This document shows positions 15,878 through 56,887 of a DNA stretch of 64,000 nt, piece after piece. A program made the translations under genes and the position numbers. The notes beneath the pieces are model-generated. The model saw only the letters and a list, made by a program, of their open reading frames with translations. It ran no database searches and was not told where the DNA came from. The stretch is from an uncultured virus (IMG/VR IMGVR_UViG_3300043775_001647) (taxonomy: Duplodnaviria; Heunggongvirae; Uroviricota; Caudoviricetes): the IMG/VR virus record IMGVR_UViG_3300043775_001647; one strand, written 5' to 3'. Positions within the stretch are counted from its first letter, which is position 1. The number at the start of each line of letters is the position of its first letter.

Positions 15878-16111
15878 AACTGTTTTTATCTTATTGATAC
15901 CTAAATATACGAATAAGCCTCCGAAGAAGCAACCTTTAGACAAAAAAAAATAACGACCATCCAAAGCATTTTTTGTGGCCACTATAGTGTTTCTGTAGGT
16001 TCTAGAAGCTTTTGATTGTTATTTTATTATGTGCCCTAAGCTCGTTTCCTTATGTAACGTCAATGTCTCTGTAGACTACATTAATAAATATGGTAAAAAT
16101 AAAAAAAAGTG

Positions 16112-16200
16112 TTTGTCCCCTGAACTAATGTTCGTATCTTTAGGATGTCGGAAGATAGTACGAAGGGCGGCTCCAAAGGGGTTGAAGAAATCAGACGTAG
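16112..16200 (+). ncRNA. Plus-strand promoter plus ~55-nt hairpin RNA candidate, copy 2
   Basis: TTTG(16112)-N19-TATCTTTAG(16135), then ATGTCGGA...TCAGACGT. Confidence 0.5.
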
Positions 16201-16245
16201 TTTGGGCCCTGGAATAAGTGGTACTTTCAGTGGTACCTTACCACT

Positions 16246-16441
16246 CCCCCTAGAACCACATCCCCAAGTCTTCCCCAGCGGTTTCTTTTCCCAGACCTCC
16301 CCCCCCCCCATGTCCCGCCTGCGGCGGGTCTCCCCTTACCCCCCACTGTTCCTGCAGGTCTCCCCCCATGCCCGGGGCGGTACCTCGAGTCGATCGACCG
16401 GCGAGTCTTGCGAAATCGACCGGAGCGGTACACATGCCGGT
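16246..16441. other. GC-rich patch with C-tracts and a palindrome cluster
   Basis: About ten C3-C11 runs; CCTGCAGG, CCCGGG, GGTACC, CTCGAG and GTCGATCGAC within ~50 bp. Confidence 0.8.
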
Positions 16442-16648
16442 AAACTCTCCTAAATACTCTCCACTCTTCCCTTGTCTATTTTCTACACACCATTACCATT
16501 CTTTTATATAGTACCATGTTATACCCACTACTAGTTAACACACATTACTTTTCATTACACACTTCCCATATCACCCTTACCCTTTATATTATGTTTTCTC
16601 ATTGTCTTATAGTCTTACCATACGTCTATACTTATCTATAGTATACTC

Positions 16649-17890: not shown

Positions 17891-18814
17891 TTATTGTCTA
17901 AGTGTTTTTTTGTTTCTGTAATTTACATCTGTGAACATTGTTGGGATCATATCTGTATGAGTTGCTCTGATAGGATTAATATCCAATCCTCCTCTACGGG
18001 TATACAAACAAGCTACCATCAAACGAGAAGGTTGATAAGCTTCTGTTAAATGCATAAACATCATCTCACAAATCTCTTCGTGGAAATGAGACACCTCTCT
18101 ATGAGATACGATGTACTTTGCTAACGATTTGAAATCAGGAGCATTTGTTCCGGTAGTCTCAATCTCGATATAAACATCACCCCAGTCTGGTTGGTTGGTT
18201 ACCCTACAGTTACTTCTCAAAAGGTTTGAAGTTATCTTAGTCGTAACTGCTACCTCATTAGGAGCTACTTCCATTGATTGCAACTGACTAGCATCTGAAT
18301 GGAATGTATCGAAAGTTTCTTCGTCTAAATTAACTGCCTGGTCAAGGTGTATGTAATCTGTTCCAAACTCTACCTCAGGAGTAAACTCGTTCGTAAAGAA
18401 CTTAACTTCAACTTCTGTCTGTAATAGTTTAGATAGATCTTTAGTGACCATCTGCTCAACTAAGTTAACACATTCGTGTGCTGTAGAACCCAAACGGGTC
18501 ATGTTAAAGGAGTTCAAGTAAAGCTTGATTGACTTAGACTCTACGTGAGCAGGACTATCTGCCGGACAGTAGATCTTCATCATTCCGTTTACCGGACGTC
18601 CATTCTCTGTGATTGCTGATACTTCATAAGCATTCCAAACATCACCGCCTACAAAGGGTAGGTCACCTTCTTTAATGCTGTAACTCTCTCGGTTGTAGTA
18701 GCGAGGTACTGCAACGAGAAGCTCAGGAGCATACGTTGACTTGTAACCCTCACCGCCTACCTTACCAAGGTGTTTGCCGGCAATTTCAATTACTGTATTT
18801 TGATTATTATCCAT
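17891..18814 (-). CDS. queF: NADPH-dependent preQ0 reductase QueF (bimodular)
   Basis: QueF motif VESKSIKLYLNS, catalytic SNCRVTNQPDWG, FHEEICE, YTRRGGLDINP. Confidence 0.93.
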   Translation of the reverse strand: MDNNQNTVIEIAGKHLGKVGGEGYKSTYAPELLVAVPRYYNRESYSIKEGDLPFVGGDVWNAYEVSAITENGRPVNGMMKIYCPADSPAHVESKSIKLYLNSFNMTRLGSTAHECVNLVEQMVTKDLSKLLQTEVEVKFFTNEFTPEVEFGTDYIHLDQAVNLDEETFDTFHSDASQLQSMEVAPNEVAVTTKITSNLLRSNCRVTNQPDWGDVYIEIETTGTNAPDFKSLAKYIVSHREVSHFHEEICEMMFMHLTEAYQPSRLMVACLYTRRGGLDINPIRATHTDMIPTMFTDVNYRNKKTLRQ

Positions 18815-19343
18815 GATTCTTTATTGTTGTATAAAATTTTTCTAATCTTTCTTCTACTGATCCTGTTAGGTATACTACAGGAACTTTTATATGCTTAATG
18901 TATCGTTCAAATAAGTCTACTATATCATCTCTGAATTGAGTATTAGTGCTCCTGGTTCCATCGTCTACGATATCGAATTCAGGCTTTAGATAGAAGATAT
19001 AATCATAGCGATCCTTGTAATGATTGAATACGTTCATAGAGTATTCCCATACCCACTTCTCAACACTACCTTGCTGGTATAACCAATGAGTATAAACTAC
19101 TCCGTCGATGACACATCTATCCATAATAGCATCAGTATACAGAGTATTCTTAATATGCTCATTCATAATTAGAAGCTGGGTAGTATTACCTCCTGCTTCG
19201 TTTATCTTCAAACCCTTCTTAACCATCCGGCGGGTAATCTCGTCGATGAATTCGTATTTGTACCTGAACTCCTCGTTCTGCTTAATTGCTTCTAGTAGAG
19301 TAGTCTTACCTGTTGATTGAGCTCCTGTAAATGATATTCTCAT
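18807..19343 (-). CDS. P-loop nucleotide kinase (NadR/AAA_28, dNMP-kinase-like)
   Basis: Walker A GAQSTGKTT, DRCVID motif. Confidence 0.8.
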   Translation of the reverse strand: MRISFTGAQSTGKTTLLEAIKQNEEFRYKYEFIDEITRRMVKKGLKINEAGGNTTQLLIMNEHIKNTLYTDAIMDRCVIDGVVYTHWLYQQGSVEKWVWEYSMNVFNHYKDRYDYIFYLKPEFDIVDDGTRSTNTQFRDDIVDLFERYIKHIKVPVVYLTGSVEERLEKFYTTIKNHG

Positions 19344-19370
19344 TAGTATTAATATACGAAGTTAATTTGA

Positions 19371-19916
19371 TTAAAGCCAATGTCTTTTAAGAAAGTTTAC
19401 CCACATATCGACTGAGATGTTATGCAGCTTCTGAAACATTTCATCCATTGTAAGGTTCCTGATGCTTATCTGCTGAGATCTAACTACCGGACCATCATCC
19501 ACTCCTGCTGTTACTTGATGAATTACACAGCCGGAACTACTCAAATCTAGATTCCAGGCTTTCATCTGAGGATCTTTTCCTTTCAGTTCAGGGTATTTAG
19601 TGATCAAACCAGGATGTCCATTGTAGATAGTTGAATACTCTTCAATCACTTCTGTAGGTATTACTCTTAACCATCCATGTAAGGTGATCACGTATGTATC
19701 AATACCGATTGCTTCTGCTAAGACGCTACGGTAGTCTTCTACGGTTGGTTGGTTCGGTAATGTTATAATATTTTTAGAGAGCACCTCTTGGTTTATTTTC
19801 CTTAACCGGGCCGGTCTTTCATTGGTAATAATAACATCAGGCCATCGATCTAAATGATTACTTACTTCAGCAATCTCGTTGCCAGTCTGAGAGAAGAATG
19901 CAATCCACTTACCCAT
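19371..19916 (-). CDS. dpdN: PurN-like formyltransferase; probable preQ1 formyltransferase
   Basis: FFSQTG, LHGWLRVIP, YNGHPGL..YPELKG, GCVIHQVTAGVDDG; embedded among 7-deazaguanine genes. Confidence 0.75.
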   Translation of the reverse strand: MGKWIAFFSQTGNEIAEVSNHLDRWPDVIITNERPARLRKINQEVLSKNIITLPNQPTVEDYRSVLAEAIGIDTYVITLHGWLRVIPTEVIEEYSTIYNGHPGLITKYPELKGKDPQMKAWNLDLSSSGCVIHQVTAGVDDGPVVRSQQISIRNLTMDEMFQKLHNISVDMWVNFLKRHWL

Positions 19917-20700
19917 TCCACCATGCTTTAAAGACGTCAATATTCCAATCTAAGTTATGCTTGCTGATTTGGTCTGCCGGGTAGTTAATTAATTCAAATA
20001 GCTTCTGAGACTCTTTTGTCTTAAGCCCGGAGTGAGGATAAGGAATTCCTTTAATAGCATGTACTACTGGGTTAGAAGTATCCATTGAGTAAATCCAATC
20101 ATATCCTTTGTAGAACTGACCTTCTTGAGGTAATGCACAACCGAGTAAGTGGTGAGGCTTTTGCTTATTAATAATACCGTCCTTCTCTAATCTGCCTAGC
20201 AAAGCAACTCTTCCTAGCATCCAGCTTACAAGCTTGTTCGGATTAGGAACTATTTTTTCATAGAGAGAATAATCAAAAGAGATTGCAATCATATCAACAT
20301 CCAGCTTGTCATCTAAAGTCTGATAGCATTCCACGATCTCCTCATAAGTCTTTCCTTGAACTACTGCAATACTTTTACCCTTAGCGGTTGGTCTATGAAA
20401 CTGATTCCATACGTAAGCATTAAAGATTGTTGTCTTTGCATCCTCTAAAGCATCTGGGATGATGTACCAGGTAGGCTCAAGCTTATTATTCCATTCGAAG
20501 AACTTCTTCATATCAAAAGCCTCTCCTAATTCAAAGATTGAATTATCTAAAATAACTTCTCGTTCTTTACAGGCTTCAACAAAGGCTTCTTTATAGGCTT
20601 CACTCTCCTCTAACAAATGAACTAAGCAGTAATCGTAATCAGTCTTAGTTTGAACGTAAGAGAATAAATCGATAGGAGATTCGTGCGCTATCTTAATCAT
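19909..20700 (-). CDS. dpdA: TGT-like TIM-barrel protein; probable DpdA-family 7-deazaguanine transglycosylase
   Basis: ILDNSIFELG, IIPD, AVVQG, HHLLG and SMDTSNP motifs; coupled to folE. Confidence 0.65.
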   Translation of the reverse strand: MIKIAHESPIDLFSYVQTKTDYDYCLVHLLEESEAYKEAFVEACKEREVILDNSIFELGEAFDMKKFFEWNNKLEPTWYIIPDALEDAKTTIFNAYVWNQFHRPTAKGKSIAVVQGKTYEEIVECYQTLDDKLDVDMIAISFDYSLYEKIVPNPNKLVSWMLGRVALLGRLEKDGIINKQKPHHLLGCALPQEGQFYKGYDWIYSMDTSNPVVHAIKGIPYPHSGLKTKESQKLFELINYPADQISKHNLDWNIDVFKAWWNG

Positions 20701-21377
20701 TACTTGCAGCTATATCCTTTAACGAATTCGTAAAACTCTGCTCTTGCTGAATCTTCCATCATGAAGCATCCTGATAACTTTGAAGTTTTCATAGAAGCTC
20801 CTGCATGCTTTACTCCTCTGCAAGATACGCAATTGTGGGTTGCTTCGACCATTACAGCTACTCCCTGATTACCTTCACAAATCTTATTCACTGCGTTATG
20901 GACTGCAACTGTATATTGTTCTTGGATTGTTCCTCTTCTTCCGAAGTATTCAACAATCCTATTTAGCTTTGATAAACCGACAACCTTACCTTCTGGAGAA
21001 GGAATGTAACCGATATGAACCCGGCCTTGGATTGTTTGGTGATGATGAGAACACATAGAGGTAATTGGAATATTGCCTTCAAATACCATTCCGTCGTATC
21101 CATCTGAAGGAAATGCAGTAACGTTATCCATCATATCGTAACGTCCTTTCCATAAATCGAATACGTATGCTTTTGCTACCCTGCGAGGAGTATCAGAAGA
21201 GTTAGGATCATTCTTCCAATCACAACCTAATGCATCTAGAAACTTTCCGTAAGCATCTGCTGCCTTATCAACCATCTTCCATTTCTCTTTTTCGGTGAAC
21301 GGATAACCGGGTGCCTTGCCGTTAGCAAAGCCCATGCTCGCTAATTCAAGACCGTCTGAAAATTCTTTTAAATCCAT
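20700..21377 (-). CDS. folE: GTP cyclohydrolase I
   Basis: DTPRRVAKA, SMCSHH, GLSKLNRIV, HNCVSCRGV. Confidence 0.95.
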   Translation of the reverse strand: MDLKEFSDGLELASMGFANGKAPGYPFTEKEKWKMVDKAADAYGKFLDALGCDWKNDPNSSDTPRRVAKAYVFDLWKGRYDMMDNVTAFPSDGYDGMVFEGNIPITSMCSHHHQTIQGRVHIGYIPSPEGKVVGLSKLNRIVEYFGRRGTIQEQYTVAVHNAVNKICEGNQGVAVMVEATHNCVSCRGVKHAGASMKTSKLSGCFMMEDSARAEFYEFVKGYSCK

Positions 21378-25092: not shown

Positions 25093-25406
25093 ATTTTATC
25101 TATTAGGTTTTTAATTTCAACACATTTTAAGTAATCTTCTTCCTGCTGATAAATAGTTAGAATAAGGTTTAATAATTTCTTGAACTGCTTCCTCTCGACT
25201 GAAAGATCTAATCCATAGTAAACCATTCTAAATAAGACTAGTTCGTCTCTTCCATCATTGATTGCATCGGTGATTCTTTCTAATACTCTCAACTTAATAA
25301 CTTCTTTGAACTCAGGAGTCTTGAGAGTTTCGGCAAAGCTTTGTTCAATATCTTCTTCGTCCTCAAAATAAACTTCGAGGTAGATTGGCTCATCTATTTT
25401 CTTCAT
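25089..25406 (-). CDS. Hypothetical protein with UVR-like motif
   Basis: YQQEEDYLKCVEIKNLI. Confidence 0.75.
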   Translation of the reverse strand: MKKIDEPIYLEVYFEDEEDIEQSFAETLKTPEFKEVIKLRVLERITDAINDGRDELVLFRMVYYGLDLSVERKQFKKLLNLILTIYQQEEDYLKCVEIKNLIDKI

Positions 25407-26158
25407 AGTATAAATTTTAAATTAGTTTCTGGATGAGAATAAATATAGCTACTCCATTTGTATTTTGCATACTCGTGTCCTTTTTGTTCTGCCTGCAGTC
25501 TTTTTTCGCCGTTAGTTGAAATGGAAGCAAAATGGTAAAAGTGACAATTATATGTTCTAACCATTTTTAAATCTGATATAGCACATTTTAAAAAGAAATC
25601 CCAATCAGCTACCATACCTGCTTCATAATTTTCATCCCATCCGCCTAATCTTATGTAATCATATTTGTTCATAAAGATCGGTAAAGTTGATCCCGATTCT
25701 TCTGTTTTACCCTCCCTGACTGAATTTTCGTAATCCCAGTAAGTTTGTAGGTCAAACGTTTTAGGATCTCTTCCTAGATCCTTAATATGGAATTGTCTGA
25801 AGATAGAAGGAGAAGGCTCGATTTGATTAGGAGCTAATACATATCCGGGTTTATATTCCTCAAGTAACACTTGATCCCATACATCCGGAAAGACATTATC
25901 ATCATTTACAATCAGAATCTTATCAAACTTAGCATTATAAACTCCTAAGTTAGTTGCCCGGCAAAGCCCGACGTTCTCTTCTAAAACTAGAATCTCAACA
26001 GAGTCTTTATACCTATCAAGAACCTCCTTATTAACCTCATAGAACCCATCTACCACTACTATAATTTGGTTGTTTAACCTCTGTCCGTTAATGGCTGATC
26101 TTAAACATAAGTCCAGCGTTTCAGGCTCTTTATATGTAGGGATGATTACTGAGATCAT
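25403..26158 (-). CDS. Glycosyltransferase family 2
   Basis: ISVIIPTY, VVVDG, NDD, LGGWDE...DWDF. Confidence 0.9.
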   Translation of the reverse strand: MISVIIPTYKEPETLDLCLRSAINGQRLNNQIIVVVDGFYEVNKEVLDRYKDSVEILVLEENVGLCRATNLGVYNAKFDKILIVNDDNVFPDVWDQVLLEEYKPGYVLAPNQIEPSPSIFRQFHIKDLGRDPKTFDLQTYWDYENSVREGKTEESGSTLPIFMNKYDYIRLGGWDENYEAGMVADWDFFLKCAISDLKMVRTYNCHFYHFASISTNGEKRLQAEQKGHEYAKYKWSSYIYSHPETNLKFIL

Positions 26159-26850
26159 ACTAAGCTCCAATCTGTTAGAGGTGATAGCCAAGCTGTCTCT
26201 CCATGAGTTGCATACCCGGGAATAGAGCTTATTAATAACTCTCCCTGCTCTCTCAAATCTAAGAACATTTTAAAGTCCTCAGGATAGCTTCCTTGAGTAT
26301 ACTTACGGAGAGTTTCTTCTGTTCTCTTTAATGTTGAGACTGTAGCTGCAAAGGTCATAGTAGTTGAGTTTGTTATCTTCCAATGAGTTGATTCCGTTAA
26401 GTATACTCGAGTATCTTCTGCTCCTCCTTCACAGTAGGGATTCCCTCCTCGGGATGGCGGTAGATACTTATCAGGATGATCATATAAAGATATGAACGAA
26501 GCTCCTAATTGCAAACCTTCTTTAATAATTTTATCTGAGTTTGGTTTATGTAAGTAATCATTCTCTAGGAAGTAAACAACTTCTTCATCCGGTAATTGCA
26601 GCGCTTCATCTAAAGCCAAGTTAAAGGTACCTGCTCCATGACCGACAGAAATATACTCAATAAAGTTTCTAGGGCTATGCTTTTGAATCATATCGTTAGT
26701 CTCTTCTGAGATATTATCTGCAAGGATAGTCCAGTCGTTATCAAACCAAGGGAAGGTCTGGATAGCATTCTTCAGACAGGCCTCATTGTTTATGTAAACT
26801 GGTTTTACTTTGCTATAACCTGAATCGGATATTCTATAGATTATTTTCAT
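26155..26850 (-). CDS. GT-A-fold glycosyltransferase-like protein
   Basis: ILADN, VYFLENDYLH. Confidence 0.65.
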   Translation of the reverse strand: MKIIYRISDSGYSKVKPVYINNEACLKNAIQTFPWFDNDWTILADNISEETNDMIQKHSPRNFIEYISVGHGAGTFNLALDEALQLPDEEVVYFLENDYLHKPNSDKIIKEGLQLGASFISLYDHPDKYLPPSRGGNPYCEGGAEDTRVYLTESTHWKITNSTTMTFAATVSTLKRTEETLRKYTQGSYPEDFKMFLDLREQGELLISSIPGYATHGETAWLSPLTDWSLV

Positions 26851-26853
26851 ATA

Positions 26854-27744
26854 CTATGATAGCAAATTTATTATATGATTTGCAACTTCTTTATCGGCTA
26901 AGTAGGCATCTAGTACCGTATGAGGATCTCCAAAATATTCTCTAGGACCTAAACGAGGCTGTTTAATCTGCTTTAACACTCCATTCCAACCGTAAAGCTG
27001 TAAATTAAAGTCGCCTGTAATTACAGTCTTAGTCCCTACTCCTGCAGCAATTGTAGCTAATCCTCCATCAGTTCCGATAAATGCAACACAATGCTTCATT
27101 ATAGAAGCTTCAAACAAAAGTGATTTTTGATCATCATCTGGCAAATATAAAGTCTGTTGCTGGTTGGCATCTCCAACACCGATTGGGTATAAAGTAAAAT
27201 GCTCCTGCAGTTCGTTTACTATGTATTGAATGTCTCTATGTGCTCCTCCGTAACCTAGGTTTGGAACATCTACACCTGCTTCATACTGCTCAGGAGTAAA
27301 TAGGTAAGTCTTTGGTTGCCAATTAGTCATAAAAGCAAGAACTGGTTTGTTACCTGTCTGTCTTAATTCAACAACAACATCTCTAGCAATAGCATCATAT
27401 TCCGGAGTGGTGTAAACTACATACCCGGAGGATAATTCTTCAAAGCCGGCTTGCTGTTGGTATTGTTCGCAAGGAGTAATTTGATAGTCTAAAGCTCCTA
27501 ACTCAATAACCTTGCTGTAATTATTCCCAGTACAGGGATGATAAGGTTTAGGGCCTGGTATTTGTGATATAAAGACCCTATCTATAAATGGATTGTTCTC
27601 AACTAATTGAGCTACTTGTGGAAAGCCGATTAAGTAATCTACTTGAGAATAACCTTCTCCTTTTAGCTTTTCAGCTAAGGATGTTGCGAAGATAATATCT
27701 CCAAAGAAGCCAAAAGTTACTACTAAACAATTAGTATTGCTCAT
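26854..27744 (-). CDS. GT9 (heptosyltransferase-like) glycosyltransferase
   Basis: FGDIIFATSL, NNPFID, FIGTDGGLATIAAGVG. Confidence 0.8.
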   Translation of the reverse strand: MSNTNCLVVTFGFFGDIIFATSLAEKLKGEGYSQVDYLIGFPQVAQLVENNPFIDRVFISQIPGPKPYHPCTGNNYSKVIELGALDYQITPCEQYQQQAGFEELSSGYVVYTTPEYDAIARDVVVELRQTGNKPVLAFMTNWQPKTYLFTPEQYEAGVDVPNLGYGGAHRDIQYIVNELQEHFTLYPIGVGDANQQQTLYLPDDDQKSLLFEASIMKHCVAFIGTDGGLATIAAGVGTKTVITGDFNLQLYGWNGVLKQIKQPRLGPREYFGDPHTVLDAYLADKEVANHIINLLS

Positions 27745-28108
27745 AGGATTTTTCTTCCACAAATAATGAACCTGTCAGTAGGTTAATTTCTTTTTTAACT
27801 TCTGCTCTCTTGTCGTTAGTAACATAAATTTGTCTAGCATAATGAATAAACTCTTCATCAAAGACTTTATTCTTCTCTTTCATTCGAATATCATCCTCTA
27901 GATCCCAAAGTGTTTCGTTAACTGTTTTCACTTTTTCGTATAGGATACGAACCTGCTCATCTTCTAAAAGGCTAGCTCCTATATTAGTTAATTCTGTATA
28001 CTCTGTATGTATGTTCTTCAGTTTACTTTCGTCTGAAATCCGTTCTAATTTAATTTGCAGTATGCTAATTTTATCTAGCAACTCTCCGTCTGATATTTCT
28101 ACTTTCAT
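27731..28108 (-). CDS. DUF6165-like protein
   Basis: VEISDGELLDKISILQIK...NDKRAEVKKEIN...EEKSY. Confidence 0.75.
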   Translation of the reverse strand: MKVEISDGELLDKISILQIKLERISDESKLKNIHTEYTELTNIGASLLEDEQVRILYEKVKTVNETLWDLEDDIRMKEKNKVFDEEFIHYARQIYVTNDKRAEVKKEINLLTGSLFVEEKSYEQY

Positions 28109-28833
28109 AAATTTATTTTGTAGTTGTTTGATTTAATCCATTTTACATTCTCTAATCCTATTGGTATTTCCTCTAAAGTATATTCAATATTATCATAACC
28201 AACATGCCTATATTCATAAGCTTTTTGGTATAGCATCTTTCCTTCGTAGAAGTCTCTTTGATCCTGTTCTGGTTTCAAATGCATTGCTCCATTATCATCA
28301 TGGTACAAACAGAAATAAGTACCTTCAGACTGTCTCACTACAGGAATACTAGCCCATCTTAGTCTCTCTCTTAAGTCTTCATCTTCGTTACCCCACCCTT
28401 TATATAGAGGATTTAAACCGTTAATAACCTCAAACTGCTCTCTTGACATCATTACAACCCCGCCGTAAAAATTAGGATCGATTGCTTGAGAGAAGCTTCT
28501 GTAACCGCCTGGAATGTCATGCTCAGGCCTTAAGCTTGCGTTGTCCTTATCAAGGAAGAATGCTTTTGCTCCCATTAGAGTAACAGTTCCGGTAAAAGTA
28601 TAATCTAAATCGTCAGCTGGATAATAATCAACCTGATGTAGAATAATAACATCCCCGGTTGCTTCTTTGAAGCCAATATTATTTACAATAGCAATCTGGA
28701 AATTATCTTCGTTACCTTGTTCGGAGATTATAATTTCATATTCTTTATCTGCAAACTTATCTTGCAGTCTTGGTAGCAATACCTCCAGATGCTCTTCCCT
28801 ATTCCGGTAAGGTATAATAATTGAGTATTTCAT
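28105..28833 (-). CDS. GT7 galactosyltransferase-like glycosyltransferase
   Basis: IIIPYRNREEHL, YGGV, INGL...GWGNEDEDL. Confidence 0.88.
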   Translation of the reverse strand: MKYSIIIPYRNREEHLEVLLPRLQDKFADKEYEIIISEQGNEDNFQIAIVNNIGFKEATGDVIILHQVDYYPADDLDYTFTGTVTLMGAKAFFLDKDNASLRPEHDIPGGYRSFSQAIDPNFYGGVVMMSREQFEVINGLNPLYKGWGNEDEDLRERLRWASIPVVRQSEGTYFCLYHDDNGAMHLKPEQDQRDFYEGKMLYQKAYEYRHVGYDNIEYTLEEIPIGLENVKWIKSNNYKINL

Positions 28834-29599
28834 CTCCGAATCTATCATATTGGTGAATAACTGTGTAGTCTTTTAAAGTATTCAAATCAAACTTAACCAC
28901 TCCTTCTTTAATAACATGTAGATGAACTGCAAATTTATCTTCTAGACTTGTGAAGGTTGTTTTATGTTTGTAAGAATTTCTTGTAAGATAATTAAAAGAA
29001 GTCTGATCGGCAACTTTAAATTTACCACAAGACATTAGGAAGATATCTTTACATAGAGCTTTAACATCCTCTGCTCCGCCTCCAAATACTCCAACATTAA
29101 GAACTTCCTCTTCTGCTAATTCAGATCCTAGGAAGCCTAAGTTAACATAAAGATGTTCTAAGTTCCATCTGTGATCTTCATACTTAATAACCTCCCCGGT
29201 TGCAATGATGCCTTCTAAAGGTACTCTTGAAAAAGGTGATTGAGTAAACACAACGTCCTTCACATCTGTTATGAATACTTTCTCATACTGCATATCATTA
29301 AGGAAGTTAGCAATGTGAAGGAACCGAATATTATGTACTAGGTTGTAAGAGCTTTCCGGGGTTACTCTTCCGGTGTCTGTCAAAAACTCATCCTGTATCG
29401 CTCCAAAGAAATTAACCTGTGGAAGGTAAACATCTACATTATTTTCAGCTAAGTATGATACTAAAGGTGAATTTGAATTTCCATTATATAAATACAAGAC
29501 TCTGTCTGTATCTTCGAACTTAGAAGTTTGCACCCAATTCTTAATATCAGCAACAGAATAGTTATTACTGATTGCTCCTATAAGTAAATTTTTATTCAT
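28799..29599 (-). CDS. GT-A-fold glycosyltransferase-like protein
   Basis: VFITDVKDVVF..SPF, LNVGVFGG, DQTSFN, HQYDR. Confidence 0.7.
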   Translation of the reverse strand: MNKNLLIGAISNNYSVADIKNWVQTSKFEDTDRVLYLYNGNSNSPLVSYLAENNVDVYLPQVNFFGAIQDEFLTDTGRVTPESSYNLVHNIRFLHIANFLNDMQYEKVFITDVKDVVFTQSPFSRVPLEGIIATGEVIKYEDHRWNLEHLYVNLGFLGSELAEEEVLNVGVFGGGAEDVKALCKDIFLMSCGKFKVADQTSFNYLTRNSYKHKTTFTSLEDKFAVHLHVIKEGVVKFDLNTLKDYTVIHQYDRFGDEILNYYTLPE

Positions 29600-30413
29600 T
29601 AAAGTTAATATAATTAATTTCTGGGTTAACGAACCAACCGATATTGTCTGAATACTTCTCTTCACCTATCCAATGGTAAGCATCTCCGGTCATTGGTAAT
29701 TCAATAATTCGTTTCTTATCTAAAGCGGAAGCAATTGAGGATGGTCCTGATAAGTTACCTACATAGAGTGCTGCTGAGTTAATTGCTGTAAACCAATTAT
29801 GCACATCCCCTATTTGGTAGAACTCACATTGATCTTTGAATGGGAATAAATCATAATCCTTCTGCTCAGTACCGATAAAGACAACCTGTCCCGGATAAGC
29901 TTCCATAATACTTTGGTAAGGGAATTCATTATTAATCCTTGAGTGACTGTACCTCCTGTTAATAATAACCTTATCGGTAAAGTATGGATCAATCTCATTG
30001 AACTGTATCCACTGATAAGGCTTTTTAATTTCAAAATCAAAAGTTAAGCTAAAGATTTCAGACCAGCAAGTCTTATAGAGGTGAGGAGATCTCATAAAAT
30101 GCTCTAGGTGCGTAAAGCCTTCCTCTACCAATTTAGGTTCGTAGACTTCAATAGGCCCACTAATAACATTTGGATTAGTAGGCACTATCTTAAAGTCCTC
30201 AAGCATCTGAAAGGAATTAACAAATGGTTGGTTCATTACCAAGTCGCGAAGTTCCTTGTATGCTGTATCAGTTCCTAATTCGAACCCTCCTTCAACATGG
30301 TAGAGGTAAATATCTGCCATTGTATTATTCTTCTCACATAGATGCTTCATACCGAACATCATATGCATAAAGTCACCAAGCTTACCGCAGATAGTAAAGT
30401 TCTCAGTTCTCAT
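29592..30413 (-). CDS. GT-B/GT9-like glycosyltransferase
   Basis: GKLGDF, VFIG, YVGNLSGPSSIA. Confidence 0.6.
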   Translation of the reverse strand: MRTENFTICGKLGDFMHMMFGMKHLCEKNNTMADIYLYHVEGGFELGTDTAYKELRDLVMNQPFVNSFQMLEDFKIVPTNPNVISGPIEVYEPKLVEEGFTHLEHFMRSPHLYKTCWSEIFSLTFDFEIKKPYQWIQFNEIDPYFTDKVIINRRYSHSRINNEFPYQSIMEAYPGQVVFIGTEQKDYDLFPFKDQCEFYQIGDVHNWFTAINSAALYVGNLSGPSSIASALDKKRIIELPMTGDAYHWIGEEKYSDNIGWFVNPEINYINFNE

Positions 30414-31042
30414 TAAATTCTCTTCTTGAAGCAAGCTGTTAAGATGTTTGGTGACAATGCTTTATCAACTCGAACCTTATCTTCAACATTGCAGTAATTA
30501 ATCATATCGAACCCTTGCCTGTTCATAAAAGCTTCTAAACTCTTTTCTGTGAAATGGTACAAGTGTTCATCAGGCTTTCTATGCTTCCAGGTTTCAAACC
30601 AAGCATCATCTAAGCCATTAACGCACCAAGGTAAGCTGATAACAGCATACTTACATTGAAGGTTCTTAACGAACTCAATATCGCCAAAATGTTCTAAGCT
30701 ATCAAAGAATGTAATAACGTCAGCGTACTGGTTAGTAATATCATCAACGAAGTTAATTCCCGGGTTCAAAGGATAGGCTGGCTGTATATCGTTACCGTAA
30801 AGCTCTCCAATAAATCCTCGGCAAGATTCTAAAAAGTCTCCATTACCGTATCCAACATCCATAAGCGATTTAGGGACCTCTCCAGTTGCGCCAATAATAT
30901 AACCCAATCTCAAATTCAAAATGTTTCCTCTGTCATTGAAGTGAGAGTATCTACTATCTGAATAATCAATGTCGTAGTTGTAAGGCTTACATTCGATTTG
31001 CTTAATAACACCGTCCTGTGTTAATTCGTAGTTGTTTAACAT
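30413..31042 (-). CDS. Class I SAM-dependent methyltransferase
   Basis: LMDVGYGNG, ITFFDSLEH, EHLYHF. Confidence 0.88.
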   Translation of the reverse strand: MLNNYELTQDGVIKQIECKPYNYDIDYSDSRYSHFNDRGNILNLRLGYIIGATGEVPKSLMDVGYGNGDFLESCRGFIGELYGNDIQPAYPLNPGINFVDDITNQYADVITFFDSLEHFGDIEFVKNLQCKYAVISLPWCVNGLDDAWFETWKHRKPDEHLYHFTEKSLEAFMNRQGFDMINYCNVEDKVRVDKALSPNILTACFKKRI

Positions 31043-31085
31043 AATATTATAATATAAGGATTAGTTTAGTAAATAGCAATTTATC

Positions 31086-37171: not shown

Positions 37172-37173
37172 AA

Positions 37174-46757: not shown

Positions 46758-49094
46758 TTAGTGACCATCCCTAAAATTCTTTGCTATTTCCGGTGGTGCC
46801 TTTAAGGTTACCCCTGGTAGCTGGGTAGTGGTTTCCATAACATGCTTAACTACTTCAGCTGCTTCATGAACTAAGTCTTCTCTAATCTTAATGATCAATT
46901 GGTCATGAATCTGGGCAATAACGATACCGTCCCAGTCTCTTCTCTTAAACTCCCTATTAATGGCTAAAGCTGCTCGATTAACCACTGATGCTGCTAAAGA
47001 TTGAATTTGAAAGTTTAAGCAGTTATTCAAAGCATTCTTATAATCTCCGTAGAGTCTCTTTACATTATCTCCTCCAATCTCTTTAGTAAGATCATTTCTA
47101 AACTTCCAATCCATAATCCTTTCTCCAAAAGAATCATAAACCGCTTTACCTCTATCAAGGTGTCGGATTCGACCTACTTGGTTTTTAATAAAGCCATCTC
47201 TTTTAAACAATGCTCTTGAATTGTCAATCCATTCAGCAACTCCCGGGAACCCTTTCATATAACCTTCGTGAAGCCTCTTTCCTTCTTCTTGAGGTACTCC
47301 TAAGGACATTGCAAGTGCGTAAGGAGACATTCCGTAAGCAACTCCTAACGAATAACCCTTTGCTTGATTTCGTTTAGGTGCATCAAGCTTCTTAAGGAAG
47401 TTAGGAGCCTTTTTATCAGCTGATACTCCGTCGGGGTACTTATCTCTTTGTTCGTCAAGCTTTTCGGTTCGGATAGCAACCGTTGAATAGAAATCATGAC
47501 CTTGACTAAAGATCTCTTGCATGGCTTCGTCATTAGATATGGAAGCGAAAATGTGAGGCTCTAAAGACTCGAAGTCATTATCAATCAACAAGTAACCAGG
47601 GTCTGTTGTAAAGAATGCTCTGATCTCGTTATTGTATTTAACGATGATTGGATCTGCTTCTCCATCTTCTTTAGGCTTAGGTAACTGCTGAAGGTCAGAT
47701 CCGTATCTGCCTGACACAGTTCCGTTCTGTTTAAAATAAGGGAAGAAACGTCCATCCTCTGCTTGATCGTAAAATCGATCCACGTAGGTTGACTTAATCT
47801 TTAGGAGCTTATTATAGATACGTAAGTTCCTACACCATTCGTATTTGTCTGATAAAGCTTGAATCATATCATCATCGAATTGAGCTTGGCCTTTAGTCGT
47901 TTTAGATAACGGCTTCTCTTTCAAGTAGTTAAAAGCGATATCACCTAACTGCTTCTTTGATTGAATATTTAACCACTCCCCGTCGTTAAAGTCTTTCCAA
48001 AGCTTCATAGAAACTTTAGTAACAACTTCTTCAGTTAAGCAATCTAAATCTCCAGAAAGCAAATAATCTTTTACCGGACTATCCTCTAGTATAAGGATGT
48101 TAGCCTGCTTTAAAGAATAGTTTCTCGAGTTTTTAGGTATAGGGAGCTTATACATATCAACCAACGTACAAGCCCAAGTTCCTTTATGACCTGGAGGGAA
48201 TTCAGTTAATGCTGAATCGATAATCCATTCTTTAACTTTTTGTAGCTTAAGTAGTTCTTCAATTACTGCCCGGCGATACTTCTCCTGGTCAGTTAAGATA
48301 GCATCTCTAGTTTGTTCTATCAAAGGTATATCAAGGGCTATCCCTTCGATTTCCATTGGTATAGTAACCTCTCTATAAAGGGGCATTACTTCGTCTTCAA
48401 AGAAGAACTTAGTTAGTCCTTCATGCTCGAGAACCGGTAGAAAGTGATTACAAATACGCAAAGTAAGATCCGTATCCGCAGCAGCATATTCACTCAACAG
48501 GTTAATATCTGCTTTGTAAATCTCAAAGTTATCTTTAGTAACTGAACCGCCATTCTCCTTAATTGAGTTCTTAAGGTTGATCTGTTCTTGGTTAGCTGCT
48601 TCTTCAACATTCAAACCGATCTTATCTTGAATCATAATGGCGATTGATTTTAGTCCGAAAGGACTTGCTCCATACCCGAATGCTCCTTCTTCTTTTACCG
48701 TGTGAACTAGTAAAGCAGTATCAACCCAAAGTGAAGGTAGCAAGTTGACTTTGTAGAAGTTATCTGTATAACGGCAGTCAAAAGAAGCATTATGCATAAC
48801 AAGTTTCTTTCCAACCAGCATCGAAATAATCTTCTTTGCTATTCGATGACAGCCAATGCTTTCAATCTGACACTCGTCAAGAGTTTGAGTTTCGTTATTC
48901 CAAAACATAGTCGGCATATAAAAGCCCATTCCTTCTTCACCCGAAACAGAAAAACCAATAATCCTTCCTTTGCGAGTATTTAAAGAGTCTGTTTCTGTAT
49001 CATAAGCAAGAATCTCTTTCTCGTTAATATGCTGGATAAGGAGATCAACTAGCTCTTTGCTATTGACAAGGTAATACTTTTTTTCGACAACCAT
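46758..49094 (-). CDS. polA: Family A DNA polymerase with 3'-5' exonuclease
   Basis: Exonuclease YDTET, HNASFD, YAAAD; polymerase motifs DFESLE, R..AK...G..YG, IHDQ. Confidence 0.95.
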   Translation of the reverse strand: MVVEKKYYLVNSKELVDLLIQHINEKEILAYDTETDSLNTRKGRIIGFSVSGEEGMGFYMPTMFWNNETQTLDECQIESIGCHRIAKKIISMLVGKKLVMHNASFDCRYTDNFYKVNLLPSLWVDTALLVHTVKEEGAFGYGASPFGLKSIAIMIQDKIGLNVEEAANQEQINLKNSIKENGGSVTKDNFEIYKADINLLSEYAAADTDLTLRICNHFLPVLEHEGLTKFFFEDEVMPLYREVTIPMEIEGIALDIPLIEQTRDAILTDQEKYRRAVIEELLKLQKVKEWIIDSALTEFPPGHKGTWACTLVDMYKLPIPKNSRNYSLKQANILILEDSPVKDYLLSGDLDCLTEEVVTKVSMKLWKDFNDGEWLNIQSKKQLGDIAFNYLKEKPLSKTTKGQAQFDDDMIQALSDKYEWCRNLRIYNKLLKIKSTYVDRFYDQAEDGRFFPYFKQNGTVSGRYGSDLQQLPKPKEDGEADPIIVKYNNEIRAFFTTDPGYLLIDNDFESLEPHIFASISNDEAMQEIFSQGHDFYSTVAIRTEKLDEQRDKYPDGVSADKKAPNFLKKLDAPKRNQAKGYSLGVAYGMSPYALAMSLGVPQEEGKRLHEGYMKGFPGVAEWIDNSRALFKRDGFIKNQVGRIRHLDRGKAVYDSFGERIMDWKFRNDLTKEIGGDNVKRLYGDYKNALNNCLNFQIQSLAASVVNRAALAINREFKRRDWDGIVIAQIHDQLIIKIREDLVHEAAEVVKHVMETTTQLPGVTLKAPPEIAKNFRDGH

Positions 49095-50533: not shown

Positions 50534-51043
50534 TTATTCTTCAATTATTTCTCCGGTGATAAAAGGCTGGTTTCGCTTAGTTCCGTTAGTTGCATCAAGG
50601 CCGTAACCTACCAACCATGCTTCATTATTTAATTCAAATCCGTAGATAAGATCCTCCATATAGGAATAGCTTCTTTTAAATAAAGTAACCGGAGTAATTG
50701 ACTTAGCTCCCTTAGTTTGAAGATGGGCTATCAAGCGTTTCATAGTGTTACCCGAATCGTAGATGTCGTCAACTATAAAGACGTCCTTATCTTTTAAATC
50801 AATTGAGACATCCTTCAGAATATCTACCCGGTCTTGAACTTGCCCTAAGTATGATTTTGCTTGCATAAAGTCGATTTCACAATCAACCTCCATGTTACGA
50901 ACCAGGTCTGCGAAGAACATAAATGCTCCGTTTAGAACTCCGATCATAACCCTTGATGAATTCTCAGGATTGTTTTTGTAGCTTACCTCAAGGGCAAGAC
51001 TTTTTACTCTTGTTTGAATTTCCTCTTCTGTGAATAGAACCAT
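50534..51043 (-). CDS. hpt: Hypoxanthine/guanine phosphoribosyltransferase
   Basis: GVLNGAFMFFADL, KSY, IVDDIYDSGNT, VGYGLD. Confidence 0.9.
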   Translation of the reverse strand: MVLFTEEEIQTRVKSLALEVSYKNNPENSSRVMIGVLNGAFMFFADLVRNMEVDCEIDFMQAKSYLGQVQDRVDILKDVSIDLKDKDVFIVDDIYDSGNTMKRLIAHLQTKGAKSITPVTLFKRSYSYMEDLIYGFELNNEAWLVGYGLDATNGTKRNQPFITGEIIEE

Positions 51044-53387: not shown

Positions 53388-53581
53388 TATCGATCTACTT
53401 CAATTTTATGACCTATTTGATAAGGCATTACTGAAATCACTGTGAATGTATCACATATGCGATCTATCTTTTTCATAGCAGTACTATCCTGCCTAGGTCG
53501 AACTTTAACTGCTTTGTAGCTATACATGTCCTGTGAAAGGTCTGCATGAATTAATGCTACTATAATTAAAACTGTTTTCAT
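53387..53581 (-). CDS. Small exported hypothetical protein
   Basis: Hydrophobic N-terminus; TAATG overlaps. Confidence 0.6.
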   Translation of the reverse strand: MKTVLIIVALIHADLSQDMYSYKAVKVRPRQDSTAMKKIDRICDTFTVISVMPYQIGHKIEVDR

Positions 53582-54372
53582 TATACTGCTCGCTTAGTGT
53601 CCCAGCTTATTATGTGATCCCTTCCTGTCCAATTGTAGCCCATGTCGAATGCTTTTTCTAATGAGATTGGATACTGCTTGATCAATTCCTCTCTGTTATC
53701 ACCAGCAGGCATCAACCAGGTTTTATTCTTAGGGATGTTGTGCTTTACTCTAAATTCTTCAATCTCATTCATTGTTTCTTCAGTACCGTCATACACTGGT
53801 TTGTAATGGTAGTCCGAATGGTATGCAAGGGTCTTCTCAATTGCATCATCATTTAAACGTAGCTTATTATGCTGATCGATCATCTTCTGGTCGACCAGTT
53901 TACCCATTGGAGTAGTAACATCAAGCTTAGGCACACTATTACTAAACTTAGGTGATAGGGAAATAAGACCAATTGGATAATCCGTCTCGACAAAATGAGA
54001 ACCTTCTGTTTCAATAGTTATAAATATTCCTCTTTGATTAGCAAAATGCGTTAATTCATTACATAGATCTGGCTGCATGGTAGGTGAACCTCCAGTCAAC
54101 ATCATTTCAGTAATGGTTGGATTCTCATCATAAATTTTAATGATGTCGTTAAATGTAATATGCCCTTTCTCAGGGTGTATACTGCTATACCAACTATCAC
54201 ACCATCCGCCTTCGCCAAACCAACATCTGTGAGTACATCCGGTTGTTCTGATAGCAACGGTAGGTCTTCCCTGCCTTGAACCTTCAGACTGGATGCAAGT
54301 ATAAAGTTCGATGATGGGTAATTTTTTGTTGTAATCTAAAATACGACCTGGTTTTTTAATTTCTATTGACAT
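53581..54372 (-). CDS. queE: 7-carboxy-7-deazaguanine synthase (radical SAM)
   Basis: IQSEG, RTTGCTHRC......WCDS, LTGGSP, IETEGS, SLSPK. Confidence 0.9.
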   Translation of the reverse strand: MSIEIKKPGRILDYNKKLPIIELYTCIQSEGSRQGRPTVAIRTTGCTHRCWFGEGGWCDSWYSSIHPEKGHITFNDIIKIYDENPTITEMMLTGGSPTMQPDLCNELTHFANQRGIFITIETEGSHFVETDYPIGLISLSPKFSNSVPKLDVTTPMGKLVDQKMIDQHNKLRLNDDAIEKTLAYHSDYHYKPVYDGTEETMNEIEEFRVKHNIPKNKTWLMPAGDNREELIKQYPISLEKAFDMGYNWTGRDHIISWDTKRAV

Positions 54373-55009: not shown

Positions 55010-55474
55010 TTATCCTTCGTAAATTGCTGAATTGCGTCCATGTTCCATAAAGTCTACTCGAACTACTCTCACTCTGCCTTCTGTCTCTGTATGAATAAAT
55101 TCCTGAAGCTTATTAAAGATATGCTCAGCAAATTTCTCTGCTCCTACTGCGGGTAGGATTCTTACTTGAGCTGCTCCTGCTCGATCCATTAACTTAAATG
55201 ATTCAAGGAACGGATCATCTTCGGCAATAATCATAGTATGATCGAACATATAGTCCATCCATGCTTTTGGATTCATTCCGTCGATAGTTCCTTTAGCTCT
55301 CTTCATTCCTCCGAAATCCCATACCCAGTTCTTTTCGTCTAACTCTCCTTCAAACCATACTTTAAAAGATACTCCGTATCCATGAACGTACTTACAATGA
55401 GTTCCCTCTGCTTTCCATTGACGGAATACGCAGCTGAATCCGTCAAATACTTTTGTTGATTGATATTTTCCCAT
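55010..55474 (-). CDS. queD: 6-carboxy-tetrahydropterin synthase
   Basis: HCKYVHGY, WVWDFG, FDHT, AEKFA. Confidence 0.9.
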   Translation of the reverse strand: MGKYQSTKVFDGFSCVFRQWKAEGTHCKYVHGYGVSFKVWFEGELDEKNWVWDFGGMKRAKGTIDGMNPKAWMDYMFDHTMIIAEDDPFLESFKLMDRAGAAQVRILPAVGAEKFAEHIFNKLQEFIHTETEGRVRVVRVDFMEHGRNSAIYEG

Positions 55475-55912: not shown

Positions 55913-56079
55913 AGTTCTAATAATTCTGTTCCTGGGTTTGATACTAATACTCGTGATGTATTTTCTTTGTGTAGAGCTTTTCCTGCAGCCCAGTTGTGAG
56001 TCCAGATCAGAGAGCCTTGTACCATACCGGCATAAGCTTCTCCGTCTTTATTTACTATTAGGTAATACTTATCCTTCAT
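55909..56079 (-). CDS. 56-aa hypothetical protein (not in ORF track)
   Basis: MKDKYYLIVNKDGEAYAG...; overlaps both neighbours. Confidence 0.55.
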   Translation of the reverse strand: MKDKYYLIVNKDGEAYAGMVQGSLIWTHNWAAGKALHKENTSRVLVSNPGTELLEL

Positions 56080-56887
56080 GCTTACTCAAAACGTTTTTAA
56101 CATGTTCAACTACTTGCTCCCAAGTTACCGGTCCGCCTTCGTCAGCGTATTGAACTGGATCTTTTCTTTGTAGTTTAATGAATGCTTCTACTCTCTCTAC
56201 TGAGGATGCTGACTTGTAATCAGAGTACCACCTACCGTTGATCTGGATTGGCTTATAAGAGGTGTTAGTCTTTTCATAAACAGAATCAAAGTCAATATGC
56301 ATTTTATCGCAGCACTTCTCTCCATCTCTCAAGATTCCAAACTTGGTTGACTTTAGATAGGGAGTATAAAGGCTTACTTTATCTGCACCCCAGTTACCTG
56401 ATTTAAATGCTTCAAAGTCTGCATCCCTAAATTCTTCCCGGCAGTCTGGATAAATAGCATGATCGCCAGAATGGATTCCCATTGCAATAACGCATTTAGT
56501 ATTCTTCTGTTCTGAAACTGATAATGCAACTGCTTGAATGATTGAACTGAAGATTTTATTCCTATTCGGAACAACGGTTGCTTTCATATTCTCTTCAGCA
56601 TAATGCCCTTCAGGAACATCAGCACCGCCTGTAACTAGAGTAGAGTTAAGCAATTGAGCTAAACCGTCAAGCTTAATTACTTGATATCTGATTACTGGAT
56701 ACCCTAAGGGGGTTACTTGGTGATTTAAATATTGAACTAGAGCTTTTGCTCTTTCGAGTTCAACTTTATGTTTCTGACCGTAGTCAAAGGATAGTGCTGT
56801 AACTTCGTAGCCATCGGCAAGTAGACGTAGTAACAGTGTTGAGGAATCCATCCCCCCGGATAAGCTAAGCACTGCTTGTTTATTCAT
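56069..56887 (-). CDS. queC: 7-cyano-7-deazaguanine synthase
   Basis: SGGMDS, FDYGQKH, VVPNRNKIF, YPDCR; C-terminal Zn cysteines absent. Confidence 0.92.
   Translation of the reverse strand: MNKQAVLSLSGGMDSSTLLLRLLADGYEVTALSFDYGQKHKVELERAKALVQYLNHQVTPLGYPVIRYQVIKLDGLAQLLNSTLVTGGADVPEGHYAEENMKATVVPNRNKIFSSIIQAVALSVSEQKNTKCVIAMGIHSGDHAIYPDCREEFRDADFEAFKSGNWGADKVSLYTPYLKSTKFGILRDGEKCCDKMHIDFDSVYEKTNTSYKPIQINGRWYSDYKSASSVERVEAFIKLQRKDPVQYADEGGPVTWEQVVEHVKNVLSKHEG

What the first reader, a model, noticed from the sequence alone, without database searches (positions are those of the whole stretch)
17891..21377. folE / TGT-like / formyltransferase / kinase / queF block: a nucleotide-pool route to 7-deazaguanine (formyl-preQ1) DNA
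Seen: five contiguous, mostly overlapping genes, with queE, queD and queC at 53.6-56.9 kb, so FolE-QueD-QueE-QueC (preQ0) and QueF (preQ1) are all present. QueF keeps the ESKSxKLY reductase motif, which points to preQ1 rather than archaeosine. No GUN-anticodon tRNA is encoded in this window. Established (recalled from the literature, to be verified): phages with a PurN paralog (DpdN) and a divergent DpdA, e.g. Flavobacterium phage vB_FspM_immuto_2-6A, carry formyl-dPreQ1 in place of G. Inference: the P-loop kinase between the formyltransferase and queF is not needed for post-replicative base exchange. It is the candidate monophosphate kinase that makes the modified dNTP, which would mean the TGT-like enzyme acts on free nucleotides rather than on DNA.
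Basis: partly seen in the sequence, partly recalled or inferred. Interest (0 to 1): 0.85.

Follow-up and report, generated by a model that had tools for sequence, protein, structure and literature searches.

The report
Phage guanine-replacement operon with nucleotide kinase
An uncultured phage carries the known gene set that replaces every guanine in phage DNA with a formylated 7-deazaguanine, and the kinase gene inside it is swapped for unrelated nucleotide kinases in other phages, which suggests, without proving, that the new base is put into free nucleotides before DNA is copied rather than into finished DNA as published.

Summary
Observation confirmed. folE-dpdA3-dpdN-kinase-queF match Flavobacterium phage immuto_2-6A (72/60/56/37/64% identity), whose DNA has formyl-dPreQ1 at all Gs (Cui 2023). 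The gene set is known; the kinase is not part of the published pathway. A kinase gene lies within 0.7 kb of dpdA3 in all three phages with measured 100% substitution. In 74 of 74 related loci the dpdA3-queF interval holds a kinase: this P-loop family in 58, an unrelated DUF3310 'nucleotide kinase' in 16, never both. DpdA1 controls: 0 of 54 loci, 1 of 21 records (100-102, 117, 120). Best reading (0.5; any pre-replicative route about 0.65): DpdA3 exchanges the base on dGMP and the kinase feeds the dNTP pool. Against: no biochemistry; the kinase fold is closest to NadR; four complete distant DpdA3-like genomes lack a detectable kinase; Streptomyces phages carry this kinase without dpdA3; this phage lacks the MazG-like gene of its relatives. 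A modified-dGTP route was proposed in 2019 for Campylobacter phages. This scan reported the same idea before on at least eight other genomes.

The parts
20700..21377 (-). folE, GTP cyclohydrolase I (225 aa)
   Evidence: PF01227 E 4e-44; 72% to immuto FolE
19909..20700 (-). dpdA3, minimal TGT-fold transglycosylase (263 aa); D52, D83, D207 conserved; no CxCxxC zinc motif
   Evidence: 60.4% to immuto gp206, 40% to CP220 gp056; model pLDDT 92.8; Z 17.8 arcTGT, 17.4 DpdA 7ui4; motifs
19371..19916 (-). dpdN, PurN-like formyltransferase (181 aa from ATG 19916; longest ORF starts at TTG 19940)
   Evidence: PF00551; 56% to YP_010114479.1, the DpdN named by Cui 2023
18807..19343 (-). P-loop kinase of the NadR/dNK/TMPK class (178 aa); candidate kinase for the modified dGMP analogue
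   Evidence: PF13521, phrog_2107; 36.5% to immuto gp203, 33% to CP220 gp057; Z 17.9 NadR, 16.4 dGK, 15.5 TMPK
17891..18814 (-). queF, bimodular preQ0 reductase (307 aa)
   Evidence: PF14819+PF14489; ESKSIKLY, C203, D210, H245-E246; 64% to immuto QueF
53581..54372 (-). queE, radical SAM CDG synthase
   Evidence: phrog_2076 E 1e-45
55010..55474 (-). queD, CPH4 synthase
   Evidence: PF01242, phrog_2389
56069..56887 (-). queC, preQ0 synthase
   Evidence: PF06508 E 3e-38
50534..51043 (-). HGPRT-like phosphoribosyltransferase; possible salvage of released guanine (inferred)
   Evidence: TIGR01203 126.8 bits, under the cut-off of 150; a PRT lies beside folE in many relatives
46758..49094 (-). family A DNA polymerase; would incorporate the modified dNTP (inferred)
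   Evidence: PF00476+PF01612; a few kb downstream of queF in most immuto-like relatives

Best explanation
The window is part of a 166-kb immuto-like phage that replaces its guanines with formyl-preQ1 to escape restriction. FolE-QueD-QueE-QueC make preQ0 from GTP and QueF reduces it to free preQ1 (established chemistry, orthology shown here). Inferred: DpdA3 swaps guanine for preQ1 on free dGMP, not on DNA; DpdN formylates the amine, probably on the small molecule as its relative PurN does; the kinase takes the modified monophosphate to the diphosphate; a host nucleoside-diphosphate kinase completes the dNTP; the phage polymerase incorporates it. Released guanine may be salvaged by the PRT. How dGTP is kept out in this phage is unexplained.
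For: Orthology and order match immuto_2-6A, 100% fdPreQ1. Kinase within 0.7 kb of dpdA3 in immuto, CP220 and phiST, the three with measured full substitution; phiST's is a different P-loop family. Kinase within 3 kb in 79 of 107 DpdA3 loci against 0 of 54 DpdA1 loci; library profiles on whole records: 19 of 30 against 1 of 21. Slot between dpdA3 and queF: P-loop kinase 58, DUF3310 16, empty 0, both 0 of 74; starred branches force at least 5 changes of the DUF3310 label. T7 gp1.7 phosphorylates dGMP and dTMP (PMC11897194); its link to DUF3310 is recalled. Close kinase homologs: dpdA3 in 25 of 25 clusters. MazG-like gene within 3 kb in 41 of 107 against 1 of 54; a MazG-kinase fusion abuts dpdA3 in L202. 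dpdA3-queF and dpdA3-dpdN fusions exist. DpdA3 failed in the E. coli plasmid test where DpdA2 worked. 13 DpdA3 records do not avoid G-containing 6-mer palindromes, 11 DpdA1 records do.
Against: No biochemical test. Cui 2023 concludes all insertions are post-replicative. The kinase model is closest to NadR (Z 17.9) and deoxynucleoside kinases, so its substrate is open. 28 of 107 DpdA3 loci have no kinase within 3 kb; 11 of 30 records have none by five profiles, four of them rated 100% complete (G006, G011, G013, G018). The kinase family occurs without dpdA3 in complete Streptomyces phages. G001 lacks PRA-PH and MazG matches. MazG is as common in DpdA1 records (9 of 21) as in DpdA3 records (10 of 30). 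Net charge does not separate DpdA3 from DpdA1 (medians -9, -7). The DpdA1 control is mostly one phage lineage, and the locus-level profiles were built from DpdA3 loci.
Confidence: 0.5

Rival explanations
1. Published model: DpdA3 is a very efficient DNA transglycosylase acting after replication; DpdN formylates preQ1 or dPreQ1 in DNA. The kinase is an accessory that keeps GTP/dGTP supply up, since full substitution roughly doubles the guanine demand.
For: All tested DpdA insert into DNA; Cui 2023 proposes this for DpdA3. The catalytic motifs align with DpdA1 and the fold matches DpdA 7ui4 at Z 17.4. Several complete DpdA3-like genomes have no detectable kinase. This phage has no MazG.
Against: DpdA3 activity on DNA has never been shown; tests in E. 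coli failed. It does not explain why one of two unrelated kinase families fills the same slot in 74 of 74 loci, nor MazG-like genes abutting dpdA3. DpdA1 is motif-limited and partial (listing abstracts).
Confidence: 0.25
2. Pre-replicative, but at nucleoside level: DpdA3 works as a deoxyribosyltransferase on deoxyguanosine and this kinase is a deoxynucleoside kinase making the monophosphate.
For: Foldseek ranks deoxynucleoside kinases first; the only sequence hit in the PDB is a deoxyadenosine kinase, E 0.016; E35 is invariant and aligns with the dNK Glu. Cui 2023 reports that the ADG nucleoside was seen in CP220-infected cells; Hutinet 2019 raises deoxyribosyltransferases.
Against: The family that replaces it (DUF3310, PHROG 'nucleotide kinase') and the thymidylate-kinase-like and DNMK forms beside other dpdA3 genes are monophosphate-kinase types. 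MazG-like neighbours yield monophosphates.
Confidence: 0.1
3. Pre-replicative by salvage chemistry: the PRT joins preQ1 to PRPP, the kinase phosphorylates the ribonucleotide and the phage B12 ribonucleotide reductase makes the dNTP; DpdA3 has a finishing role.
For: HGPRT-like gene at 50534-51043 and a class II reductase in G001; PRT beside folE in many relatives.
Against: No PRT was detected in the CP220, phiST or BSTP12 loci, whereas dpdA3 plus kinase is in all (flanks only). In the window the PRT lies 30 kb from dpdA3.
Confidence: 0.05
4. The kinase is unrelated to the modification (nicotinamide-riboside or ordinary dTMP kinase) and lies here by inherited gene order.
For: Best fold match NadR kinase domain; JGI names 'nicotinamide riboside kinase'; homologs without dpdA3 in Streptomyces phages and a second copy in CP220.
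Against: The linkage holds across immuto-like and T4-like backbones (31 and 14 of 58 loci), Firehammerviruses and small siphoviruses, with four kinase families. No NMN-adenylyltransferase domain in the 178-aa protein.
Confidence: 0.05

Closest known systems
[quoted passage not shown] 2023, PMC10516641)
   Same: All eight genes; dpdA3-dpdN-kinase-queF order; 56-72% identity for FolE, DpdA3, DpdN, QueF.
   Different: folE abuts dpdA3 and the MazG/PRA-PH-like gene upstream of dpdA3 in immuto is absent from G001; queE/D/C and polA lie 26-36 kb away. The paper does not treat the kinase and calls the process post-replicative.
DpdA3 phages Campylobacter CP220 (100% dADG) and Cellulophaga phiST (100% dDG)
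   Same: dpdA3 with a kinase gene directly beside it: same family in CP220 (gp057), another P-loop family in phiST (CGPG_00066), plus MazG-like CGPG_00068.
   Different: No queF or dpdN beside dpdA3; different final base.
DpdA1/DpdA2 DNA transglycosylases (9g, CAjan, VH7D) and bacterial DpdA (7ui4)
   Same: TGT fold and catalytic motifs; shared preQ0 pathway.
   Different: Partial, DNA-level insertion; longer proteins (DpdA1 median 308 aa against 264); kinase in 1 of 21 DpdA1 records; still avoid G-palindromes.
Z-genome (2-aminoadenine) pathway PurZ/MazZ/DatZ
   Same: Works like it under the best explanation: full base replacement through the dNTP pool, starting from dGMP, with a kinase step (host GMP kinase per 10.1101/2025.10.22.683976) and MazG-like enzymes.
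   Different: No PurZ-type gene seen; the polymerase scores 66 bits against the DpoZ cut-off of 500; the base would be exchanged, not built on the nucleotide.
CBASS Cap10 (10.1101/2025.04.06.647259)
   Same: TGT-family fold remodelled for a non-tRNA partner (listing abstract; Z 14.0): precedent for substrate change.
   Different: Protein conjugation in bacterial defence, not DNA modification.

Membership tests
fdPreQ1 system (immuto type) | DpdA3 ortholog | tested here: met
   60.4% over 263 aa to immuto gp206
fdPreQ1 system (immuto type) | DpdN group formyltransferase linked to the pathway | tested here: met
   56% to YP_010114479.1; overlaps dpdA3
fdPreQ1 system (immuto type) | FolE, QueD, QueE, QueC, QueF all encoded | tested here: met
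   (Pfam/PHROG hits; NCBIfam equivalog cut-offs not reached)
fdPreQ1 system (immuto type) | QueF is the NADPH reductase type, not QueF-L | tested here: met
   bimodular, ESKSIKLY and catalytic Cys/Asp kept; motif as given by Cui 2023
fdPreQ1 system (immuto type) | fdPreQ1 replaces dG in virion DNA | not testable with these tools
   needs LC-MS; weak indirect sign: G001 does not avoid G-palindromes (-0.17)
TGT/DpdA transglycosylase superfamily | TIM-barrel fold with guanine-pocket and nucleophile aspartates | tested here: met
   Z 17.8/17.4/16.1 to arcTGT, DpdA, TGT; D52, D83, D207 invariant in 54 close homologs and aligned to DpdA1 motifs; assignment of roles is recalled from TGT
DNA-acting DpdA | exchanges guanine in polymeric DNA | not testable with these tools
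   no assay; published E. coli tests of DpdA3 failed; net charge uninformative
tRNA queuosine pathway | tRNA-type TGT with zinc site and GUN tRNA substrate | tested here: not met
   no Pfam TGT hit, four scattered Cys only, no GUN tRNA in G001
dNMP kinase | P-loop NMP-kinase fold | tested here: met
   GAQSTGKT, DR motif; TMPK Z 15.5
dNMP kinase | monophosphate rather than nucleoside or nicotinamide-riboside acceptor | tested here: inconclusive
   NadR 17.9, dGK 16.4, dNK 15.9, TMPK 15.5; PF02223 gives no hit in G001
Pre-replicative full-substitution pathway (Z-genome-like) | enzyme removing the canonical dNTP | tested here: inconclusive
   no MazG or PRA-PH match in G001; an HD-like protein at 2835-3623 is an untested candidate
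Pre-replicative full-substitution pathway (Z-genome-like) | modified dNTP in the pool and polymerase that uses it | not testable with these tools
   needs metabolomics and polymerase assays

The most novel reading that the evidence does not exclude
DpdA3 is a TGT-family enzyme that exchanges the base on a free deoxynucleotide, so all phages with complete 7-deazaguanine substitution use an undescribed pre-replicative pathway (DpdA3 + one of four interchangeable kinase families, often + a MazG-like dGTPase + phage polymerase), a guanine counterpart of the Z-genome route. [quoted passage not shown]
Probability: 0.6. Interest if true: 0.8.

Novelty: new variant of a known kind. Interest (0 to 1): 0.58.

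Why it matters
The gene set itself is a further member of a described system; the variant lies in the route. How a phage replaces every guanine is unresolved: DpdA3 has never shown activity, and base exchange on every G of finished DNA is hard to picture. The comparative result names the missing parts and a cheap test (DpdA3 + preQ1 + dGMP; kinase on the product) that may explain why DpdA3 alone failed in E. coli. If true it adds a new substrate class for TGT-fold enzymes, gives DUF3310 proteins a role, and offers an enzymatic route to 7-substituted 7-deaza-dGTPs. If false, the locus is an ordinary immuto-type operon.

Tried and rejected
Complex prediction of DpdA3 with the kinase gave no answer (score 0.00, mark 0.32); not used either way. 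Net charge/pI as a sign of DNA binding: no separation. Looked for a dpdA3-kinase fusion: none among the long hits or the 5 longer hits (fusions were to QueF, DpdN, homing-endonuclease/intein parts, a weak GNAT and an unknown domain). PDB sequence search with DpdA3: 0 hits. PF02223 was too insensitive for these phage kinases (1 weak hit in 51 records). MazG presence genome-wide does not discriminate. The HD-like protein 2835-3623 as a replacement for MazG: found in 6 of 14 records, all immuto-like, including ones that have the MazG-like gene, so no sign of displacement. tRNA-queuosine reading rejected (membership test). Archaeosine reading rejected (reductase QueF). Literature: 'DpdA3' occurs in one relevant paper of the library; searches listed no paper linking a kinase or dGMP to DpdA3; 'kinase' has 0 occurrences in the bioRxiv text and the NAR supplement of Cui 2023. 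Crippen 2019 and a 2024 review on 7-deazaguanines were not held and may bear on the claim. PMC12884076 had no passage on kinases. No DpdA2 or DpdA4 control set was built (three annotated regions with folE seen only).
Full report
Observation. The five genes are as described, on the minus strand, in the order folE, TGT-like, formyltransferase, kinase, queF, with three overlapping junctions and one 27-nt gap. queE, queD and queC lie at 53.6-56.9 kb. The window lies within G001, a complete 166,276-bp virus record with terminal repeats; PolA, GroEL/ES, ThyA and six non-GUN tRNAs mark it as an immuto-like phage. QueF is the bimodular reductase.

Identity. tblastn against 50,697 phage records gives immuto_2-6A as best match for the TGT-like gene (60.4%), the kinase (36.5%) and FolE (72%); DpdN is 56% and QueF 64% identical. 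Immuto has the same dpdA3-dpdN-kinase-queF order. Cui et al. 2023 (PMC10516641; I read parts 1 and 3-6 of 7 and searched the supplement) found no dG in that phage, only formyl-dPreQ1, named DpdA3 and DpdN, could not get DpdA3 to work in E. coli, and concluded that all such modifications are post-replicative. The model of 19909-20700 (pLDDT 92.8) matches archaeal TGT (Z 17.8, rmsd 3.0, 231 aligned), DpdA 7ui4 (17.4) and bacterial TGT (16.1); it is a bare barrel of 263 aa with the conserved aspartates and no zinc motif. So the gene set is known and fdPreQ1 DNA is very likely (about 0.9, inference).

The kinase. Its model (pLDDT 87.8) is closest to the NadR kinase domain (Z 17.9, rmsd 2.5, 165 aligned), then deoxyguanosine kinase (16.4), fly dNK (15.9) and vaccinia thymidylate kinase (15.5). 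Fold alone leaves the acceptor open. Context says more. All three phages with measured full substitution have a kinase at dpdA3: immuto gp203 and CP220 gp057 (same family) and phiST CGPG_00066, a different P-loop family 1 nt upstream, which Cui et al. set aside as having no homologs in other pathway phages. Bacillus BSTP12, Weizmannia Youna2 and Chryseobacterium MA9V-3 have kinases abutting dpdA3 too.

Linkage counts. 242 DpdA3-like loci (and annotated records) fell into 159 clusters at 90% identity. Of 107 clusters with 3 kb on both sides, 79 had a kinase within 3 kb (65 P-loop, 15 DUF3310, 1 both) and 28 had none; of 54 DpdA1 clusters none had. These profiles were built from DpdA3 loci, so I repeated the test with five library profiles on whole records: 19 of 30 DpdA3 records, 23 of which had been picked for lacking a nearby P-loop kinase, against 1 of 21 DpdA1 records (two short P-loop-only hits not counted). 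The DpdA1 set is mostly relatives of phage 9g, so it is a narrow control.

Displacement. In the large group that includes the window and immuto, 74 of 91 clusters had queF in the locus. The interval between dpdA3 and queF held the P-loop kinase in 58 and an 80-120-aa DUF3310 protein in 16, never neither, never both. All 33 such proteins sent to Pfam passed the DUF3310 cut-off; PHROGs labels all 11 tested 'nucleotide kinase'. T7 gp1.7 phosphorylates dTMP and dGMP (PMC11897194, passages); that gp1.7 is the source of the label is recalled, and activity of the short forms is not shown. DUF3310 also abuts dpdA3 in unrelated small phages. On a quick tree of 107 DpdA3 rows (141 eligible, 34 close rows with the P-loop kinase dropped at random, one label set by hand), starred branches force at least 5 changes of the DUF3310 label; the branch holding immuto, CP220 and phiST has a kinase in 56 of 57 rows (support 92, flagged as a long-branch join), while 20 of the 26 kinase-less rows sit in one distant starred clade with no characterised member. 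The block rides on both immuto-like and T4-like backbones (31 and 14 of 58). An unrelated fold taking the same slot repeatedly is the strongest sign here that a monophosphate-kinase step belongs to the pathway.

Reverse test. Close kinase homologs from metagenomes (48-97% identity): dpdA3 in 25 of 25 clusters with 1.5 kb upstream, out of 30. A scan centred on the Streptomyces homolog: 33 of 46 clusters; of the 13 others, 4 have dpdA3 elsewhere in the record, 2 are complete Streptomyces-like phages without it, and 7 are fragments. The family is therefore strongly but not only tied to DpdA3.

Other signs. MazG-like genes lie within 3 kb of dpdA3 in 41 of 107 clusters against 1 of 54 for DpdA1, and L202 has a MazG-kinase fusion next to dpdA3; but MazG is common genome-wide in both sets (10 of 30, 9 of 21) and absent from G001. 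Natural fusions join DpdA3 to QueF (3 proteins) and DpdN (2), not to the kinase. Thirteen DpdA3 records, G001 included, barely avoid G-containing 6-mer palindromes (mean log2 -0.24 to +0.09) while 11 DpdA1 records do (-1.46 to -0.43; p 4e-5); AT-only words do not differ (p 0.82). All 11 DpdA1 records spare GA-containing words relative to other G-words, against 5 of 13 DpdA3 records, as expected for motif-limited against context-free protection. Hosts differ and no unmodified control was run, so this supports full substitution only weakly and says nothing on timing.

Mechanism. Shown: gene content, orthology, fold, linkage. Established: GTP to preQ0 to free preQ1 by FolE/QueD/QueE/QueC/QueF. 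Inferred: DpdA3 exchanges guanine for preQ1 on dGMP; DpdN formylates; the kinase and a host NDP kinase give the dNTP; PolA incorporates it. I put 0.5 on this, 0.1 on the nucleoside-level form, 0.05 on a PRT/reductase route, 0.25 on the published post-replicative model with an accessory kinase, 0.05 on an unrelated kinase. Kinase-less DpdA3-like phages could use host GMP kinase, as Z-phages do (10.1101/2025.10.22.683976, one passage), or could act on DNA; this is untested. Exclusion of dGTP in this phage is unexplained.

What is known. A modified-dGTP route was already proposed for Campylobacter phages, as cited by Hutinet 2019 (PMC6884629, passages); I could not read the original or the 2024 review. 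Searches listed no paper tying a kinase or dGMP to DpdA3. Cap10 is a precedent for a remodelled TGT (listing abstract only). Eight earlier AI reports of this scan on other genomes give the same reading; they are not evidence, and my reading and the DUF3310 lead were noted before that call (notes).

Verdict. Real feature, known gene set, with a well-supported but unproven revision of how it works. Interest 0.58; 0.8 if the nucleotide-level route is confirmed.

Noticed in passing
window 25403-41802: A 16-kb block of glycosyltransferases, methyltransferases, WavE, GDP-mannose dehydratase-like, nucleotidyltransferase and a PRK-aldolase fusion; likely surface or virion glycan synthesis; it separates the deazaguanine block from polA and queE/D/C.
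   Followed up: no
window 2835-3623: HD-like metal-dependent phosphohydrolase conserved in immuto-like phages (6 of 14 records); untested dNTPase candidate.
   Followed up: partly
window 46758-52803: polA, archaeal-type dUTPase/dCTP-deaminase-like gene, HGPRT-like PRT, non-specific endonuclease and thyA in one run.
   Followed up: partly
window 54403-54942: HNH/NUMOD3 homing endonuclease between queE and queD; close relatives have GIY-YIG-like insertions between dpdA3 and dpdN (family recalled from motif).
   Followed up: no
L202 9081-9959 (G008): MazG-like pyrophosphatase fused to a thymidylate-kinase-like domain directly upstream of dpdA3 and polA.
   Followed up: partly
L185, L191, L195, L198, L199: Small phages with a minimal cassette: queC or none, a membrane protein resembling the YhhQ/VUT preQ0 transporter (resemblance recalled; phrog_4899, unknown function), MazG-like gene, often DUF3310, dpdA3, polA; no folE/queD/queE nearby.
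   Followed up: partly
G009 and G027: G009 (DpdA3-like) almost lacks TTAA (log2 -7.2), a G-free palindrome that G substitution cannot protect; G027 lacks GATC (-8.4) although it has dpdA3 and dpdN.
   Followed up: no
L004 7944-8732 (Bacillus phage BSTP12) and L009 6975-7775 (Brevundimonas phage StAshley): Cultured phages with DpdA3-like genes, mis- or unannotated (BSTP12's is labelled NadR); tractable models for measuring substitution, one with an adjacent kinase, one with a DNMK 6 kb away.
   Followed up: partly
P0243, P0339: DpdA3 fused to a 317-aa unknown N-terminal domain, and to a weak GNAT-like C-terminal domain (E 0.047), hinting at other preQ1 acylations.
   Followed up: no
T4-like DpdA3 loci such as L080, L106, L149: queC is followed by a separate 204-212-aa glutamine-amidotransferase-like gene although queF is present.
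   Followed up: no
window about 16030-16450: Short G+C-rich, gene-poor stretch with shadow ORFs on both strands in a 37% G+C genome.
   Followed up: no
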